Part shown: positions 7,979-24,798 of the stretch, in pieces
How the letters are laid out: every line of letters starts with the position of its first letter
How positions within the stretch are numbered: position 1 is the first letter of the stretch
IMG/VR virus record: IMGVR_UViG_3300045988_096839
From: a virus
Length of the DNA stretch: 64,000 nt
Direction: 5' to 3' (one strand)
The notes under the pieces: model-generated
The model's input: only the letters and a program-made list of their open reading frames with translations
Told to the model about the DNA's origin: nothing
Databases searched by the model: none
Program-made: the position numbers and the translations under genes

Positions 7979-8938
7979 AAAAACATTTGAAAACCTCAAT
8001 ATATAATATATAGCCTATGCGTAAATATAATATTGGTATATGTTTAATTGCTTTAATAACTATGCTATATTTAGGAACAAATCCTTTAATTGCTACAGTA
8101 ACAAGCATTATAATATATATTATAAATAAGTTTCCAGATAAACAAAAATAAAAGGTAATCGAATCACTTATTAAAGATTCGAACTTATTTTTAGTTATAC
8201 TATTTAGGTCATACCAACATAAAAAATATTTGGTATGACCACATTTAATGAGTCCACAGCTCAAACAAAAAAAAACTAATAACTTTCCAAGTTGTTGAGG
8301 ACACCAGTTTCTTATATTTTTAATTCCCCTTAAATTCTGTTTATAAATATAATCATAACCATAACAGCCATGAATACAGATAATAAGGTCGCAATAGCGT
8401 AATTAGAAATTAAAACTCAATATAAGTTTTAGGTGTAAAACACGTGTTTAAAAAATAACCACAACCTAAAGATGATCACTTTACGAGTGAAAAGCTTGAG
8501 AATATATGGATTACATTTGGATGCCAAATATATTCAACATAGTATAATAAGCCTAATCAGCTTTGCGGTTATTATTATTTTTTATTTTTATATTTTATAA
8601 ATCTTTACTTAAAGTAAACGTACAGTCGCACGTTAGTGGATTACAGTTCGTATTCTTATCAAGAATATTGTATTACCGAAAACTGGGGTTATGTGATAAA
8701 TGCGTAGGTTCCGTACACATAGAAAAGCAACTAATCGAAAGTAAGCATAGAGAATTATATAATAGTAATTGTTACCATTCAAGTAATGTTACTACCACAT
8801 GATTTTGTGGTGCTTAACAGTATAACACTAACTGAACAATAAGTGTTAAAACTTTTAAACAAAAATCAAGAGAAGCATTAATAGCATAACCAAGAATATA
8901 TTATACTAAAGTATAGATATAAATGCGCTTGATTTTAT

Positions 8939-9024
8939 GCTCGAATGGCGAAATAGGTAGACGCGTCAGACTTAAAATCTGATGAGCAGTAATGTTCGTG
9001 CGGGTTCAACTCCCGCTTCGAGTA
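8939..9024 (+). tRNA. tRNA-Leu (anticodon TAA)
   Basis: Full class II cloverleaf: acceptor GCTCGAA/TTCGAGT; D arm GGCGAAATAGGTAGACGC, as in bacterial tRNA-Leu; anticodon arm TCAGA-CTTAAAA-TCTGA; long variable arm; T arm GCGGG-TTCAACT-CCCGC. Confidence 0.85.
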
Positions 9025-9119
9025 CAATTCTAAATCCATACTTATAGCAAATAACACCATCTGTGAAGATCGTGTTATTTATATAATTATCTCTACACTG
9101 TGTGAATCAGTGTCAACTT

Positions 9120-9241
9120 TGTGGGGCTTATATCTAAAGAGCGCACTTAAATGGAGCTATTATCAATAGAAGGAACGTTAGTTGCAAATAACAAACCGGA
9201 AATTCTTTTTAGTTAAGTTTAAGCTTTAGTATTAGTGCAGA
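9120..9241 (+). repeat. module 1 of a repeated non-coding element family
   Basis: Starts with TGTGGGGCTTATATCTAA and ends with ATTAGTGCAGA, sharing both ends with the element at 9391-9489. Confidence 0.4.
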
Positions 9242-9390
9242 GTAATATCAAAGACAGAGTATATACCTGTAATTATACTCAAGTAAACTACTAACTACAG
9301 GACTGGTCATCCTGGTACAGGGAAGGCAGACCAGAGAGAGGTTTCGGAAGTAGTACCTCTCTCGCTCTTTATGGTGAGAATCCATAACAA

Positions 9391-9489
9391 GCATGTGGGG
9401 CTTATGTCTAATCAGATCAGAGGGCATTATTAATGTCGTTTGATGGTAGGTGGAGGAGATTAGCATTAGTGCAGACGTTAAAATCATGC
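9391..9489 (+). repeat. module 2 of the repeated non-coding element family
   Basis: GCATGTGGGGCTTATGTCTAA ... ATTAGTGCAGACGTTAAAATCATGC. The terminal GCATG/CATGC can pair. Confidence 0.45.
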
Positions 9490-9621
9490 AAAAAGATAGT
9501 GTTATGTTCAGTCTTATTCTACAATCTTTTAGTAAATCGGTACTATCTTTTTATTTTACCCAAGCGTGGGTCGTCCTTATTCACTGTCCCTTGAATAGAT
9601 GAAAATTCTGAACATCTGTAA

Positions 9622-9656
9622 AGTATAATGGCTTGTGAAAGTCATTATACTTTTTT
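9622..9656 (+). terminator. intrinsic terminator closing the tRNA-Leu / small-RNA region
   Basis: 11-bp stem AGTATAATGGC / GTCATTATACT (one G-U pair), loop TTGTGAAA, followed by T6. Confidence 0.6.
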
Positions 9657-9878
9657 CATTAGAATAATCAAAGCGTTGATTAGACGCTCTTATACTATAT
9701 AAATGATTTTTCGTATAAATCTATTCTGATTTATACAAATTAACCTCTTGCGTTGTGAAACGCCTTTCCACTTGACAAATAAATATAAGTATATAGTCTT
9801 GGTAGGTCCATATAAATAGCACTTAACTGATGCAGTCTATATTACTTATTTAACTGATTATTCATTAAAAACAATTAT

Positions 9879-10016
9879 ATGGAAATATTTATGCAAGCAG
9901 TTGCCGCATTATTATTAATTATTGTAGTATTATTTGTCTTTGCAATGGTAGCAATATCAATAAAAAACAATAAAAATAATAATAATGACGATAATGATTT
10001 TATGATGCAATGTTAA
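9879..10016 (+). CDS. possible 45-aa single-pass membrane peptide
   Basis: The hand-found ORF MEIFMQAVAALLLIIVVLFVFAMVAISIKNNKNNNNDDNDFMMQC is below the ORF-track cutoff. It has a hydrophobic core followed by a polar tail. Confidence 0.25.
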   Translation: MEIFMQAVAALLLIIVVLFVFAMVAISIKNNKNNNNDDNDFMMQC

Positions 10017-10181
10017 TTAGATTTATAACCTAGCCACAGACAGTTACAAGCCTGTAAATCGTTTTTGAATAGGGAGTAATAAATCTACGTAGAAACTCAA
10101 GGATAAGAGTATAAAAATATCCAAATTTTTAACAATAGTTTAAATCCTCACACAAGATTACAGCATCAAAAGATGTAGCGT

Positions 10182-10385
10182 ATGAGTGTGAGGATTTCAA
10201 AAACATTTAATATGCTAAATATTATATTACTAATAAATTTAATATTATTGATATTTTCTTTAATATTAAATATGATTACATCGTTTTACGATCATTACAA
10301 ATTATCAATGATATCGGAATTATTGGTAATGTTTAATATATTTATCGAAATAATTTCCGTTATAATAATATTTATAATTCTGTAA
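10182..10385 (+). CDS. possible small hydrophobic protein (67 aa)
   Basis: ORF with two Ile/Leu-rich hydrophobic stretches. The composition could also arise by chance in AT-rich DNA. Confidence 0.3.
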   Translation: MSVRISKTFNMLNIILLINLILLIFSLILNMITSFYDHYKLSMISELLVMFNIFIEIISVIIIFIIL

Positions 10386-10438
10386 AAGCGATATAAACAA
10401 AAATAAATTTAGTGTTTAACCATTAAAAAAACAAAAAA

Positions 10439-10735
10439 GTGAAAATTTTTAAACTTATCACAAGCTACATTATTGGATTTGTAACCAGTGCATGGATTAT
10501 TATCCTTTGGTTACTCTTAGTAAATCCGTACTGTGATACTACAAATTTAGTTACTTCTGTCTTACCAGAAAACGTAAAAGTTTTCTTAGAAACAGATACT
10601 GGATTTACAGTATTACAATTGCTATTTTTAGCAACATTATTTGCCATACTTGTCTTATTTTATCTACAAGGATATAAAGAAGGAAAAGAAAAGTATGATG
10701 TAACAAAAAATATTAACGAAAGTAATAACAATTAA
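10439..10735 (+). CDS. membrane protein (98 aa)
   Basis: GTG start. Two clear transmembrane segments (IIGFVTSAWIIILWLLLV; LQLLFLATLFAILVLFYL). Confidence 0.45.
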   Translation: MKIFKLITSYIIGFVTSAWIIILWLLLVNPYCDTTNLVTSVLPENVKVFLETDTGFTVLQLLFLATLFAILVLFYLQGYKEGKEKYDVTKNINESNNN

Positions 10736-10750
10736 AAACTTATCAAAAGT

Positions 10751-11176
10751 ATGAAACATTACAATTTGACCATTTGTTTATTAGTAATTTTACTCATGTG
10801 TGTAACAATGTGTTGTAATAGACACAATCCACATGCACAACAGATTACTACCGAACAGGTAGATTCAGTTGACACAATCAAAATGACTCCTATGGAATCA
10901 GTAAACATGATGCTCGATATCAGAAAAGAAATGATTGAAAGCCACCATGTAGATTCAGTATACATGGCTATGCCAGAAGATATCATAACTCTGATTGTCT
11001 TTGACAATCCTGATTGTGACGTTTCCTGGGTAGTAAAACATTACGAAGAAAACATCGATTATTATACGGATGTATTGAAACAGAAGCAAAAGATAGAAGA
11101 TTATAAAAAACAACAATCTGAACCTGATACACTTCCAAACAAACCACATCCTGACATCAGTGTGAAAGAACTGTAA
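10751..11176 (+). CDS. secreted/lipoprotein-like protein (141 aa)
   Basis: N-terminal signal-like segment ICLLVILLMCVTMCC followed by a polar domain; TAA stop. A 9-bp GTGA-tetraloop hairpin follows at about 11198-11219. Confidence 0.5.
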   Translation: MKHYNLTICLLVILLMCVTMCCNRHNPHAQQITTEQVDSVDTIKMTPMESVNMMLDIRKEMIESHHVDSVYMAMPEDIITLIVFDNPDCDVSWVVKHYEENIDYYTDVLKQKQKIEDYKKQQSEPDTLPNKPHPDISVKEL

Positions 11177-11253
11177 TCATGTTTTAGTCATTATTGCACC
11201 GGTTCGTGAGAATCGGTGTAATATAAAATAAAAACGTCATCAGAAAATGACAA

Positions 11254-11364
11254 ACATGTGGGGTGTAAGTAATATTTTACATTTTATAAAGAAAAAGTGG
11301 ATTGTAAAGCTTTGTAAAATGCGTATCCATAAATATTATGATCATGCGGACGTTAAAATCATGT
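11254..11364 (+). repeat. module 3 of the repeated non-coding element family
   Basis: ACATGTGGGG ... CGGACGTTAAAATCATGT. It has the same 5-prime and 3-prime ends as 9391-9489. The closing pair is changed G-C to A-T on both sides. Confidence 0.45.
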
Positions 11365-14487: not shown

Positions 14488-14630
14488 GGGGAAAGAGGAG
14501 AATTACTTTAAAAACTTGCGTTGTGCTCATAACACACGAGAAAACTGGTTGAAATCCAGTCATCCCCACTATATGACTGTTAGGTCATTATACAGTTGTT
14601 AAGACGAGGGTTCGACTCCCTCTAGCTCCA
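14488..14630 (+). ncRNA. tRNA-like element: Ala/tmRNA-type 3-prime domain without a canonical 5-prime half
   Basis: Perfect T arm GAGGG-TTCGACT-CCCTC followed by TAGCTCC-A, the tRNA-Ala/tmRNA-type 3-prime acceptor strand with U70. The upstream GGGGAAA could pair only at positions 1-4 (including G3-U70). There is a perfect anticodon-arm-like hairpin ACTGG-TTGAAAT-CCAGT at 14544-14560, but no D arm, and 45 nt separate that hairpin from the T arm. Confidence 0.3.
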
Positions 14631-14819
14631 CATTTTGATAACGTTATGCGGTAATTTACCTAAAAAGTAGCAAGCAAAAAACTAATGGACCTGTATAAAA
14701 ACGTTGCCACAATGCTAGTTTTTACAACTTATTTGGTTTTATCTTCAACGTGGATTCTGTATAACAGGTGCTAATACTCAAACTATAGAGTAATACTTTG
14801 TGAGAGTATTAGCAGTAAT

Positions 14820-14945
14820 GGAATATTAGTTTAATGGTAGAACAAAGCGTTTCGAAAGAATCGATGATTATGAATAACATTAAATTCAGCAAGAACGAAG
14901 TTATTATAATCCGCTTGAGCATGGGTTCGATTCCCATATATTCCA
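14820..14945 (+). tRNA. tRNA gene with a 55-nt insertion inside the anticodon loop (anticodon TCG/Arg if the canonical 37/38 intron position applies; isotype uncertain)
   Basis: Acceptor GGAATAT/ATATTCC (7 bp); D arm GTTT-AATGGTA-GAAC; anticodon stem AAGCG (14845-14849) / CGCTT (14912-14916); variable GAGC; T arm ATGGG-TTCGATT-CCCAT. There are 62 nt instead of 7 between the anticodon stem halves. Confidence 0.6.
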
Positions 14946-15324
14946 CGTCCATAATACAATACAGTTGTTATGGTTTTGTAGTGATTTTAAAATGTTTCAC
15001 GTTTGCACCATGTAAAAATAAACGTGACTATACTATCCGAACCGAAGGGGACAAAAAATCAGAGTAGTGGTGGAGATGGGCTACTCAATTGGGGCTATAT
15101 GGTTTTGATTAGCGATAAGATATAATGAATAGGTCATATAAATTGTCTAAATGGCAATAAATTTGTAACAGACTACACTCGTATTGCAGCGTAATACGAA
15201 CGTATGAGGTGTTCGCTACCAAGAAACAGAAAAGCGTGAATTTCATCTGTGCCCGCGAGATGTAAAAAGCTAAGCGTTGATTTAGTTGTAGGTAAGCTGA
15301 ATCGTAAAAAATAAACCTAATGAG

Positions 15325-15394
15325 GGTAGTATCATTCAAGTGGTTAGGAAGACGCTCTGAACGTAAAATGCGGGTTCGAATCCCGCTACTACTC
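15325..15394 (+). tRNA. aberrant tRNA-Gln-like gene (anticodon CTG) with a 3-bp anticodon stem
   Basis: Acceptor GGTAGTA/TACTACT; the U8 and D region TC-ATTCAAGTGGTTAGGAAG resemble bacterial tRNA-Gln (TC-GCCAAGCGGTAAGGC); T arm GCGGG-TTCGAAT-CCCGC. Only 18 nt lie between the D and T arms, giving ACG-CTCTGAA-CGT plus a 5-nt variable loop. Confidence 0.5.
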
Positions 15395-24709: not shown

Positions 24710-24782
24710 ACTTCTGTAGCTAAACTGGAAAAAGCATTACACTGATAAGGTAAGATTATGGGTTCGAATCCCGTCAGAAGTC
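24710..24782 (+). tRNA. tRNA-Ile (anticodon GAT)
   Basis: Acceptor ACTTCTG/CAGAAGT; D arm GCTA-AACTGGAAA-AAGC; anticodon arm TTACA-CTGATAA-GGTAA (A31/G39 mismatch; the loop is identical to E. coli tRNA-Ile GAU); T arm ATGGG-TTCGAAT-CCCGT. It ends 16 nt before the PolB ATG. Confidence 0.75.
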
Positions 24783-24798
24783 CTAAATTAGGAATTAT

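What the first reader, a model, noticed from the sequence alone, without database searches (positions are those of the whole stretch)
14820..14945. tRNA gene carrying a 55-nt structured insertion in its anticodon loop
The acceptor stem (7 bp), D arm, T arm and a perfect 5-bp anticodon stem (AAGCG/CGCTT) are all canonical, but 62 nt rather than 7 lie between the anticodon stem halves (14850-14911). The insert forms its own 12-bp helix, GATTAT-G-AATAAC / GTTATT-ATAATC (14866-14878 with 14900-14911). This helix stacks directly on the 3-prime side of the anticodon stem and leaves a 16-nt 5-prime bulge, TTTCGAAAGAATCGAT, containing two palindromes. At 55 nt it is far too short for the group I introns known in bacterial and phage tRNAs. 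It is in the size range of archaeal/eukaryal protein-spliced introns, which are not expected in a bacteriophage. The D arm (TAGTTTAATGGTAGAAC) resembles tRNA-Trp/Gly types. With a 37/38 intron the anticodon would be UCG. It could be a novel mini-intron, a regulatory switch that keeps the tRNA inactive until processed, or a disrupted pseudogene. This phage needs a non-standard decoder, so the gene deserves attention.
Basis: seen in the sequence. Interest (0 to 1): 0.7.

Follow-up and report, generated by a model that had tools for sequence, protein, structure and literature searches.

The report
tRNA-shaped phage RNA with structured insert
A crAss-like gut phage carries a real, conserved gene for a tRNA-shaped RNA whose anticodon loop is replaced by a folded ~60-base module, and comparison with relatives suggests the module is a permanent working part rather than an intron to be cut out.

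Summary
Window 14820-14945 (+) is a full cloverleaf (Rfam tRNA 56.7 bits) with 62 nt between the halves of a perfect 5-bp anticodon stem.

It is not an isolated oddity or a pseudogene. Three diverged lineages of TAG-recoded crAss-like (Suoliviridae) phages carry it. Across them, 14 of 39 base pairs changed compensatorily, six of these inside the insert.

The insert is a three-way junction:
- a 3-bp hairpin made of loop positions 33-35, capped by an invariant GAAA
- a 5-nt linker (YYGAN)
- a ~20-bp bulged arm stacked on the anticodon stem

The would-be anticodon loop is not conserved: UUUCGA|C here, RCUAGA|A (C33) in the other lineages. No single excision gives those lineages a canonical loop. 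No allele with a canonical loop was found.

It is not the amber suppressor. The cr4_1 relative, and most relatives sampled at the terminase locus, carry a normal tRNA(CUA) beside the terminase gene.

The acceptor keeps the alanine identity pair G3·U70 plus A73 in 13 of 14 intact alleles; the window copy has A3-U70.

Best reading (about 0.45): a non-decoding, tRNA-scaffolded structured RNA, partner unknown. A true mini-intron (about 0.2) is not excluded.

In this window the gene sits inside the intervening segment of a two-piece tmRNA gene.

The parts
14820..14945 (+). whole tRNA-shaped RNA gene (126 nt, no encoded CCA)
   Evidence: Rfam tRNA 56.7 bits, full-length match. ARAGORN -i gives tRNA-Arg(tcg) with a 55-nt intron. 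Own covariance model R1 scores 153.5 bits.
14820..14826 (+). acceptor stem 5' strand GGAATAT; pairs with 14938-14944 (ATATTCC); discriminator A at 14945
   Evidence: Sequence. Position 3:70 is A-U here but G.U in near-identical relatives and in the two other lineages. Pairs 4:69 and 7:66 are compensatory.
14829..14843 (+). D arm (GTTT AATGGTA GAAC) with G18 G19
   Evidence: conserved in all lineages
14845..14849 (+). anticodon stem 5' strand AAGCG; pairs with 14912-14916 (CGCTT)
   Evidence: two pairs are compensatory between lineages
14851..14860 (+). P1 hairpin: TTC (tRNA positions 33-35), GAAA tetraloop, GAA. It sequesters the would-be anticodon nucleotides.
   Evidence: W lineage TTC-GAAA-GAA versus C/C2 lineages CTA-GAAA-TAG: two of three pairs are compensatory and GAAA is invariant. 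Predicted in the MFE of the cr4_1 and C2 alleles; the window's own MFE draws a shifted 4-bp alternative, TCGA/TCGA.
14861..14865 (+). 5-nt junction linker TCGAT (consensus YYGAN, GA invariant)
14866..14878 (+). P2a (GATTAT), bulged G (14872), P2b (AATAAC): 5' strand of the long arm. Pairs with 14900-14911 (GTTATT ATAATC). The arm abuts the anticodon stem 3' strand with no linker.
   Evidence: compensatory pairs in P2a and P2b; the bulged G is absent in lineage C2
14879..14884 (+). 6-nt A-rich bulge ATTAAA (AATAAA in C; GCTAAY or GCCAAT in C2; YAA conserved)
14885..14899 (+). apical hairpin: P2c TTC/GAA around AGCAAGAAC. Refined reading: bulged A, a G-C pair, and loop CAAGAA. AG-CAAG is invariant in all lineages.
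   Evidence: P2c has two compensatory pairs. In C2 it is a 5-bp stem with a CAAG tetraloop.
14917..14937 (+). 4-nt variable loop GAGC and T arm (ATGGG TTCGATT CCCAT)
   Evidence: four of five T-stem pairs are compensatory
14633..14945 (+). 313-nt block (187-nt spacer plus the gene) inserted immediately after the 3' end of the tmRNA acceptor piece, relative to relative L055
   Evidence: Alignment,...CTCCA|[CATTTT...ATATTCCA]|CGTCCATAATAC. In L055 the trailer CGTCCATAATAC follows the acceptor piece directly.
14770..14813 (+). 10-bp hairpin (GCTAATACTC / GAGTATTAGC) six nt upstream of the gene
   Evidence: Sequence. Not analysed further. An analogous upstream long-range helix with a compensatory change occurs in the C lineages.
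14568..14632 (+). context: acceptor piece of a two-piece (permuted) tmRNA (T arm GAGGG TTCGACT CCCTC, 3' strand TAGCTCC, A)
   Evidence: 98% identical to the ARAGORN-called tmRNA* of L106; annotated tmRNA in cr125_1
15092..15204 (+). context: start of the tmRNA coding piece (GGGGCTA pairs with TAGCTCC, giving G3.U70) through tag GNKFVTDYTRIAA*
   Evidence: same tag peptide as L106

Best explanation
This is a gene for a non-decoding, tRNA-scaffolded structured RNA. It is made as part of a non-coding RNA operon; in this phage that is the precursor of a two-piece tmRNA.

Proposed roles of the tRNA body (inferred):
- The intact acceptor, D and T domains let host RNase P and the 3'-end enzymes cut it out, let CCA be added, and make it stable.
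- In most alleles the G3.U70/A73 acceptor should also let alanyl-tRNA synthetase charge it.

The anticodon loop is permanently replaced by a compact three-way junction (shown by sequence and comparison):
- Nucleotides 33-35 are locked in a 3-bp helix capped by a GAAA tetraloop.
- A bulged ~20-bp arm, ending in a small CAAG loop, stacks on the anticodon stem.

This module is the working end and binds an unknown partner (a protein or RNA of host or phage). The RNA behaves like a dispensable accessory gene that is often swapped or deleted.

Shown: the gene is real, its structure is selected, the anticodon loop is not conserved, and it is not the amber suppressor.
Inferred: it is not spliced, it is processed like a tRNA, it is alanylated, and the module is the functional part.
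For: 1. The structure of body and insert is under selection. 14 of 39 pairs are compensatory among three lineages, six of them in the insert. The tool count on two lineages is 9 of 35, with 98.9% of cells paired against 38-51% for slid controls. There is a further compensatory G-C to U-A change within lineage C2 (L429).

2. Unpaired insert nucleotides are invariant: GAAA, the linker GA, the bulge YAA and AG-CAAG. The seven would-be anticodon-loop positions differ at 32, 33, 35 and 38. The U33-to-C33 change is compensated on the opposite strand of P1, so selection acts on the helix and not on the U-turn nucleotide.

3. Lineages C and C2 cannot yield a canonical 7-nt loop by any single excision.

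4. No allele with a canonical loop was found among 14 intact and 8 deletion alleles.

5. The 71-nt deletion allele (L051) rebuilt a short stem through two clustered substitutions but has a 6-nt loop.

6. G3.U70 plus A73 is kept in 13 of 14 intact alleles while the neighbouring pairs covary. G3.U70 occurs in 37 of 39 tRNA-Ala but in only 1.3% of 1,289 other phage tRNAs.

7. The body resembles phage tRNA-Gly/Ala/His, not Arg or Leu. CGA+CGG are rare in the phage.

8. No splicing signature was found. No Rfam ribozyme or intron hit in the insert at E<=10. No bulge-helix-bulge motif (structures). No RNA ligase or endonuclease among the 20 window ORFs scanned.

9. The locus upstream of primase in relatives shows accessory-gene-like turnover: different cassettes and a deletion series, all of which keep the acceptor/T minihelix.

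10. tRNAs or tRNA-like units punctuate the tmRNA operon in relatives, for example tRNA-His inside the tmRNA gene.
Against: - The window's own lineage does give a textbook loop (U32 U33 U34 C35 G36 A37 C38) if exactly 55 nt are removed at the canonical 37/38 site.
- Pairing of the intron with the anticodon is typical of protein-spliced pre-tRNAs (my knowledge).
- Unexplained introns next to the anticodon have been reported in tRNAs of Lak megaphages. These also infect Bacteroidota and also recode TAG (PMC6784885).
- No partner or function can be named for the module.
- The window's copy has A3-U70, so alanylation cannot be essential here.
- The three lineages amount to few independent events, and two of them share P1. 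The covariation is strong for structure but says nothing about whether the module is later removed.
- There are no expression data.
Confidence: 0.45

Rival explanations
1. It is a true intron-containing tRNA. The 55 nt are removed after transcription by an unknown protein or RNA activity and the halves are ligated. The product is a decoding tRNA: anticodon UCG in this lineage. The intron may delay or gate its activity.
For: - A canonical 7-nt loop with U33 and A37 results after excision at 37/38.
- The cloverleaf is perfect and selected.
- There is precedent: 'enigmatic' 79-114-nt tRNA introns in Lak megaphages (PMC6784885).
- The region is full of self-cleaving ribozymes, whose products are substrates of RtcB-type ligases (the ligase point is my knowledge).
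- Other phage tRNA genes with 45-66-nt non-group-I inserts exist.
Against: - The orthologues in lineages C and C2 give R32, C33 and anticodon UAG, and no canonical loop under any excision.
- The anticodon is not conserved while the insert loops are.
- The body is not Arg-like and carries the Ala identity pair.
- CGA+CGG make up 3.8 per 1000 codons.
- There is no BHB motif, no group I core and no known ribozyme.
- No intron-less canonical allele was found. All losses are imprecise.
Confidence: 0.2
2. It is only a processing or punctuation signal. The acceptor/T minihelix recruits RNase P and RNase Z to cut the surrounding transcript: the tmRNA precursor here, and the leader of the primase mRNA in relatives. 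The anticodon-arm insert has no function of its own.
For: - All deletion alleles, down to 47-48 nt, keep the acceptor and T arm.
- In relatives the gene ends 15 nt before the primase start codon.
- tRNA-like units flank the tmRNA pieces in many relatives.
- The inserted block in the window ends exactly at the tRNA-like 3' end.
Against: A neutral insert would not retain six compensatory pairs and invariant loops across three lineages. G3.U70 would also not be maintained. The D arm and tertiary nucleotides are not needed for such cleavage, yet they are conserved.
Confidence: 0.13
3. The insert is a new small self-cleaving (or self-ligating) ribozyme embedded in the anticodon loop. It cuts the tRNA-like RNA into halves or drives its own removal.
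For: - It is a three-way junction of about 60 nt with a handful of invariant unpaired nucleotides, which is the size and style of small ribozymes.
- It lies 3.5 kb from three hatchet ribozymes and RAGATH-like RNAs. cr4_1 has the same ribozyme set.
Against: No similarity to any Rfam ribozyme family at E<=10. Only about 6 junction nucleotides are present. The bulged G is dispensable. There is no positive evidence for catalysis.
Confidence: 0.07
4. It is a decaying tRNA pseudogene, or a DNA-level palindromic (MITE-like) insertion, with no RNA function.
For: - P2a/P2b is AT-rich and partly self-complementary. It promotes slippage deletions: the 90-nt alleles arose between CTATTATAATA repeats.
- Many relatives carry deletion derivatives.
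- The window's copy lost G3.U70.
Against: - The compensatory changes include 3-bp helices closed by a tetraloop, which make sense only at the RNA level.
- Polymorphisms within C2 fall in unpaired, wobble-compatible or compensated positions.
- No free-standing copies of the insert were found in about 0.9 Mb of related phage DNA. The best non-self hit was 29.8 bits, with P1 unpaired.
Confidence: 0.06

Closest known systems
'Enigmatic' tRNA introns of Lak megaphages (Devoto et al. 2019, PMC6784885)
   Same: Both are phage tRNA genes interrupted next to the anticodon by short, non-group-I sequences with no Rfam match. Both occur in phages of Bacteroidota that recode TAG. Both share the layout of a 5' hairpin, a linker and a 3' helix that ends at the 3' junction.
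   Different: Lak inserts are 79-114 nt and contain an internal tRNA-like T arm (GGTTCGAATCC). They sit in tRNAs with canonical anticodon loops, and intron-less alleles exist. Here the insert is 53-55 nt with no T-arm motif and no sequence similarity. The loop is non-canonical in two of three lineages, and no intron-less canonical allele was found.
tmRNA tRNA-like domain (including the two-piece tmRNA of this same phage)
   Same: Both have an acceptor/T domain with G3.U70 and A73, and an anticodon arm replaced by a long helix. The gene is physically nested in the tmRNA gene here.
   Different: This RNA has a complete D arm with G18 G19 and a normal 5-bp anticodon stem. It has no pseudoknots and no tag reading frame, and is 126 nt long. 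The window's copy has A3-U70.
Engineered 'tRNA scaffold' RNAs (Ponchon and Dardel 2007; cited from my own knowledge)
   Same: A structured RNA is inserted in place of the anticodon loop on an otherwise intact tRNA. The tRNA body provides processing and nuclease resistance. This is the architecture seen here.
   Different: Those are artificial constructs. I know of no natural counterpart, and none turned up in six full-text literature searches.
Archaeal/eukaryal protein-spliced tRNA introns
   Same: Similar size range. The canonical 37/38 position is possible in the window's lineage. The intron pairs with anticodon nucleotides.
   Different: There is no bulge-helix-bulge motif. The 5' 'splice site' lies in a GNRA tetraloop and the 3' one at the foot of a helix. 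Bacteria and this window show no splicing endonuclease. The orthologues do not restore a canonical loop.
Group I introns in bacterial and phage tRNA or tmRNA genes
   Same: An insertion inside an RNA gene's loop. A genuine group I intron splits the T loop of the tmRNA acceptor piece in relative cr4_1.
   Different: At 55 nt it is far below the ~200-nt minimum I recall from the literature, and below the 290-nt span of the genuine intron in cr4_1. It has no P3-P9 core, no U.G at a 5' splice site and no terminal G, and gives no Intron_gpI hit.

Membership tests
canonical decoding (elongator) tRNA | cloverleaf with acceptor, D and T arms and conserved tertiary nucleotides (U8, A14, G18 G19, T54 Psi55 C56) | tested here: met
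   Rfam RF00005 56.7 bits, full length; sequence
canonical decoding (elongator) tRNA | 7-nt anticodon loop with U33 and purine 37, at least after removal of an intron | tested here: inconclusive
   The gene has 62 nt in the loop. A single excision gives UUUCGAC in the window's lineage, but only R32/C33 loops in lineages C and C2.
canonical decoding (elongator) tRNA | anticodon conserved among orthologues and matched to codon demand | tested here: not met
   UCG versus UAG between lineages. CGA+CGG are 3.8 per 1000 codons. The body is nearest to Gly/Ala/His tRNAs.
amber suppressor tRNA of code-15 phages | anticodon CUA in a Gln-type body | tested here: not met
   No CUA product is possible in the window's gene. 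In C/C2, CUA lies at positions 33-35 without U33 and is paired in P1. A canonical tRNA(CUA) is present elsewhere in cr4_1 and at 58 of 80 related terminase loci. TAG aligns with Gln.
group I intron in a tRNA gene | catalytic core P3-P9 (match to Rfam Intron_gpI) | tested here: not met
   No hit at E<=10 in 14840-14920. Positive control: 75.4 bits for a real intron in cr4_1.
group I intron in a tRNA gene | U.G pair at the 5' splice site in P1 and a terminal G at the 3' end | tested here: not met
   P1 pairs are U-A, U-A, C-G (C-G, U-A, A-U in C/C2). The insert ends in C or A.
archaeal/eukaryal protein-spliced tRNA intron | bulge-helix-bulge (3-4-3) motif at the exon-intron junctions | tested here: not met
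   The consensus and MFE structures show a three-way junction with no 3-nt bulges. The 3' junction is a flush helix-helix stack.
archaeal/eukaryal protein-spliced tRNA intron | splicing endonuclease and ligase available in phage or host | tested here: inconclusive
   None among the 20 window ORFs scanned with Pfam. The rest of the phage genome and the host were not available.
Lak-megaphage type tRNA intron | insert with an internal tRNA-like T arm, 79-114 nt, in a tRNA with a canonical loop and with intron-less alleles | tested here: not met
   Compared with Table S6 of PMC6784885: no GGTTCGAATCC-like motif, 53-55 nt. No canonical intron-less allele was found.
tmRNA | G3.U70 acceptor with A73 | tested here: inconclusive
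   Met in 13 of 14 intact alleles but not in the window's copy, which is A3-U70.
tmRNA | tag reading frame and pseudoknots; no D stem | tested here: not met
   The D arm is complete. No tag-like frame with a stop is visible on reading the insert; this was checked by eye only. Neither ARAGORN nor Rfam calls a tmRNA on it.
known small self-cleaving ribozymes (hammerhead, twister, twister-sister, pistol, hatchet, hairpin, HDV-like) | match to the family's sequence and structure consensus | tested here: not met
   cmscan of the insert alone with lax filters returned only a chance snoRNA hit at E=5. The hatchet models work in the same window.
alanine-accepting tRNA (AlaRS substrate) | G3.U70 wobble pair and A73; the anticodon is irrelevant (established AlaRS identity rules, my knowledge) | tested here: inconclusive
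   Present in relatives and in lineages C and C2. Background is 1.3% in non-Ala phage tRNAs. Absent in the window's copy. Charging itself cannot be tested with these tools.

The most novel reading that the evidence does not exclude
The ~55-nt module is a new, very small intron or gate. It is either self-processing or removed by an unrecognised bacterial or phage activity. Its removal releases an alanine-accepting tRNA (G3.U70/A73) with a non-alanine anticodon: UCG in this lineage and UAG in the others. That would be a switchable, phage-encoded tRNA that inserts alanine at Arg or Leu codons, which the phage itself rarely uses.
Probability: 0.06. Interest if true: 0.9.

Novelty: new variant of a known kind. 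Interest (0 to 1): 0.6.

Why it matters
crAss-like phages are the most abundant viruses of the human gut, and their non-coding RNA regions (hatchet ribozymes, RAGATH RNAs, two-piece tmRNA) are unexplained.

This gene would be a natural example of something so far known only as an engineering trick: a folded RNA module displayed on a tRNA body. It carries the alanine identity pair and shows accessory-gene-like turnover, both of which hint at a role in phage-host conflict or translation control.

If the module is instead spliced out, it would be the smallest and structurally best-defined member of the unexplained tRNA introns of Bacteroidota phages. It would also make their removal mechanism testable.

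There is a practical point too. Standard tRNA finders miss such genes, and intron-aware modes mislabel them (tRNA-Arg or tRNA-Thr). That matters for annotating recoded phages.

Tried and rejected
1. Missing amber suppressor. Rejected: no CUA product is possible, and canonical tRNA(CUA) genes exist in relatives.

2. TAG read as Ala via G3.U70. Rejected: the seven TAG positions in a 622-aa late protein align with Q/E/K/N.

3. Opal suppressor (UCA, by keeping TTTC+ATC). It would need U37, and TGA is not recoded.

4. Hammerhead, C/D-box, 11-nt tetraloop receptor and other motifs. Checked by eye and by Rfam; no match.

5. Free-standing copies of the insert (MITE-like). The insert-only model R2 found none in about 0.9 Mb. 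The weak hit at L398:1616-1679 (29.8 bits) lacks P1 pairing.

6. Wider homologues by DNA pattern. The IMG/VR and metagenome scans returned only the W and C sequence types plus chance hits. The third lineage and the deletion series were found only by fetching primase loci and searching them with model R1.

7. Other phage tRNAs with ~60-nt inserts (L040/41, L042, L044/48, L045, L049). Their inserts do not align with this one.

The terminase-based fetch did not include that lineage's contigs. So the presence of tRNA(CUA) in this exact phage is inferred from relatives.

9. Pfam scan of 20 early ORFs for RNA ligase, kinase or endonuclease. Nothing found.

10. Literature searches for crAss or phage tRNA introns, tRNA-like decoys and tmRNA in crAss phages. 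Only the Lak megaphage report was relevant.
Full report
**What is there.** Window 14820-14945 (+) reads as a complete tRNA cloverleaf. It has a 7-bp acceptor stem, a D arm with G18 G19, a T arm TTCGATT and discriminator A. The perfect 5-bp anticodon stem (AAGCG/CGCTT) encloses 62 nt instead of 7.
- The Rfam tRNA model matches it end to end at 56.7 bits, treating the insert as one gap.
- ARAGORN misses it by default. In intron mode it calls tRNA-Arg(tcg) with a 55-nt intron at 37/38.
- MFE folding gives the same picture, but the energy alone is not significant (z = -1.8).

**What phage this is.** BLAST places the window among crAss-like phages of the family Suoliviridae (cr125_1, cr4_1). No close complete genome is in the phage collection.
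- The late genes on the minus strand (36309-63998) are readable only if TAG is a sense codon: ORFs of 5052, 1794 and 1102 codons.
- The seven TAG positions of a 622-aa late protein align with Q, E, K or N in homologues, which fits TAG = Gln.

**Relatives of the gene.** The only BLAST match to the gene itself is an unannotated stretch just upstream of the primase gene of cr4_1, with the same kind of insert.
- Pattern scans of IMG/VR and of metagenomes found only these two sequence types: 'W' (the window's type) and 'C'.
- I fetched 80 primase loci and searched them with a covariance model built from W and C (R1). This revealed a third, more diverged lineage 'C2' with 13 contigs and 9 distinct sequences.
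- It also revealed a series of deletion derivatives of 90, 77, 71 and 47-48 nt, and two quite different tRNA-like cassettes at the same locus.
- Among 80 sigma-factor loci, only the three near-identical relatives of the window carry the gene.

**Anatomy of the insert.** In all three lineages the insert folds as a three-way junction (for the window's own sequence the MFE draws a shifted 4-bp P1).
- P1 is a 3-bp helix formed by loop positions 33-35 with three insert nucleotides, closed by an invariant GAAA. It is TTC-GAAA-GAA in W and CTA-GAAA-TAG in C and C2.
- A 5-nt linker follows (YYGAN, with GA invariant).
- P2 is a long arm that abuts the 3' strand of the anticodon stem with no linker. It has 11-12 bp, then a 6-nt bulge with conserved YAA, then a short apical helix, then a loop beginning CAAG.

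**Evidence for selection on structure.**
- Across the three lineages, 14 of 39 pairs show compensatory double changes, six of them in the insert, and only one pair is broken in one lineage.
- The tool count on W+C gives 9 of 35 compensatory pairs, with 98.9% of cells paired against 38-51% for slid controls.
- Within C2, polymorphisms sit in unpaired, wobble-compatible or compensated positions. L429 has G-C to U-A in P2b.
- The gene is therefore real and its structure, insert included, is under selection. For this copy it is not a pseudogene.

**Is the insert an intron?** For the window's lineage, removing exactly 55 nt at 37/38 gives a textbook loop, UUUCGAC. In C and C2 the homologous positions are R32 C33 U34 A35 G36 A37 | A38, and none of the eight possible single excisions gives U33.
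- The would-be anticodon differs between orthologues (UCG versus UAG) although the rest of the body is the same. The U33-to-C33 change is compensated on the other strand of P1.
- The body is most like phage tRNA-Gly/Ala/His, not Arg or Leu. CGA+CGG are only 3.8 per 1000 codons.
- There is no bulge-helix-bulge motif, no group I core, and no similarity to any Rfam ribozyme or intron. The same library finds hatchet ribozymes in this window and a group I intron in cr4_1.
- No RNA ligase or endonuclease appears among 20 scanned ORFs.
- No allele with a canonical 7-nt loop was found. All losses are imprecise deletions. The 71-nt allele (L051) rebuilt a short stem with a 6-nt loop through clustered substitutions.

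These points favour a permanent insert. They do not exclude splicing, especially in the W lineage. Lak megaphages, also TAG-recoded phages of Bacteroidota, have unexplained 79-114-nt introns next to the anticodon (PMC6784885). Those differ in sequence, size and content, and sit in canonical tRNAs.

**Not the suppressor.** cr4_1, which has the C-type gene, is TAG-recoded and carries a canonical Gln-type tRNA(CUA) next to its terminase. 58 of 80 related terminase loci have one. The equivalent region lies outside this window, so for this exact phage the suppressor is inferred.

**Alanine identity.** The acceptor stem keeps G3.U70 with A73 in W relatives, C and C2, while pairs 4:69 and 7:66 covary.
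- Among 1,328 distinct phage tRNAs in the loci held, G3.U70 occurs in 37 of 39 tRNA-Ala and in 1.3% of the others.
- 13 of 14 intact alleles have it, against 2 of 8 deletion alleles. This comparison is not phylogenetically independent.
- The window's own copy is the exception (A3-U70).
- By the established AlaRS identity rules (my knowledge), most alleles should be charged with alanine whatever lies in the anticodon arm. This argues for more than a mere processing signal, but its purpose is unexplained.

**Context in the window.** The gene lies inside a two-piece (permuted) tmRNA gene.
- The acceptor piece (14568-14632) and the start of the coding piece (15092 onward, tag GNKFVTDYTRIAA*) match ARAGORN-called tmRNAs of relatives at 92-98%.
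- Relative to L055, a 313-nt block (14633-14945: spacer plus gene) is inserted exactly after the acceptor piece's 3' end. The block ends exactly at the tRNA-like 3' end.
- Other relatives carry a tRNA-His in the same intervening segment, and every relative examined has a further tRNA-like unit after the coding piece.
- The RNA is therefore probably released from an operon transcript by the tRNA-processing enzymes.

**Verdict.** The best-supported reading (about 0.45) is a non-decoding tRNA-scaffolded structured RNA. The body provides processing, stability and probably alanylation. The three-way-junction module is the functional end, with an unknown partner. The gene behaves as a dispensable, frequently exchanged accessory gene.
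- Rivals: a true mini-intron (about 0.2), a pure processing signal (about 0.13), a new small ribozyme (about 0.07), and decay or a DNA-level element (about 0.06).
- Six full-text searches turned up no description of this element.
- It is a new variant within the known kinds 'interrupted phage tRNA gene / tRNA-like RNA'.
- One RNA-sequencing or northern experiment would separate the first two readings.

Noticed in passing
window 14568-14632 and 15092-~15310: A two-piece (permuted) tmRNA gene with tag GNKFVTDYTRIAA* and G3.U70 formed between GGGGCTA and TAGCTCC. ARAGORN and Rfam miss it here because the intervening segment is ~460 nt. Such permuted tmRNAs are widespread upstream of the sigma-factor gene in related phages, with gene lengths of 304-479 nt.
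   Followed up: partly
window 15325-15394: A second tRNA-like unit right after the tmRNA coding piece (Rfam tRNA 39 bits). It has a 3-bp anticodon stem, loop CTCTGAA (CUG, Gln-like) and G1.U72. Equivalent non-canonical tRNA-like units follow the tmRNA in relatives, where ARAGORN calls them 'tRNA-???' (L115, L123, L080, L055).
   Followed up: partly
window 8666-11364: A non-coding RNA cluster around tRNA-Leu(TAA) at 8939-9025. It has three hatchet ribozymes (9091-9253, 9365-9489, 11236-11364). It also has sub-threshold RAGATH-7-like (8666-8848), RAGATH-6-like (9704-9856) and twister-P1-like (10022-10082) matches. cr4_1 has the same set plus RAGATH-9.
   Followed up: no
window 24710-24783; L053:10238-10309; L054:14244-14315: At one tRNA locus, phages with identical flanks keep the acceptor stem and T arm (ACTTCTG/CAGAAGT) but carry different D and anticodon arms. 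The window has loop CTGATAA (GAU), L053 has CTAGCTA and L054 has CTAACTA. The last two contain U-CUA-R shifted by two positions. More distant relatives have a long-variable-arm version. This looks like cassette-like replacement within a tRNA gene.
   Followed up: partly
L213:20186-20475 (cr4_1, NC_055893.1 ~68686-68975, minus strand): The cr4_1 permuted tmRNA acceptor piece is split in its T loop by a group I intron (Rfam 75 bits; exon junction GGGTTCGACTC|...|CCGTATGCTCCA). An ORF lies within or next to the intron. This explains why no tmRNA is annotated or detected in cr4_1.
   Followed up: partly
L414-L422 (~2346-2481) and L474:2366-2484: At the primase-upstream locus, phages with 99-100% identical primase carry a different 136-nt interrupted tRNA-like gene (body GGAAGTA..TACTTCC, unrelated 66-nt extended anticodon arm). 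L474 instead carries a 119-nt RNA with only an acceptor (G3.U70) and a T arm around a different core.
   Followed up: partly
L040/L041, L042, L043, L044/L048, L045, L049 (coordinates): Other, mostly huge, phages have tRNA genes with matched acceptor stems and 45-66-nt non-group-I inserts in or near the anticodon arm. These are unrelated in sequence to this insert. At least L044 also cannot give a U33 loop by simple excision.
   Followed up: partly
L092:4297-4369, L097:4396-4468, L098:4411-4483: A canonical tRNA-His(GTG) sits inside the intervening segment of the permuted tmRNA gene, in the same position class as the interrupted gene in the window.
   Followed up: no
L001:2840-3000 (cr4_1) and the equivalent in L435/L436: A conserved long-range helix (CGTGAGTAGCATGC / GCATGCACTCACG) lies directly upstream of the C-type tRNA-like gene. 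It shows a compensatory change in L435 (GCATAC/GTATGC) and encloses a variable segment. No Rfam match. The window has a different 10-bp hairpin at 14770-14813.
   Followed up: no
L114:13805-13879, L124:13799-13873: A tRNA-Arg(UCU) orthologue carries U33-to-C (loop CCTCTAA), which ARAGORN reports as tRNA-Pyl(cta). This is a likely mis-call rather than a suppressor.
   Followed up: no
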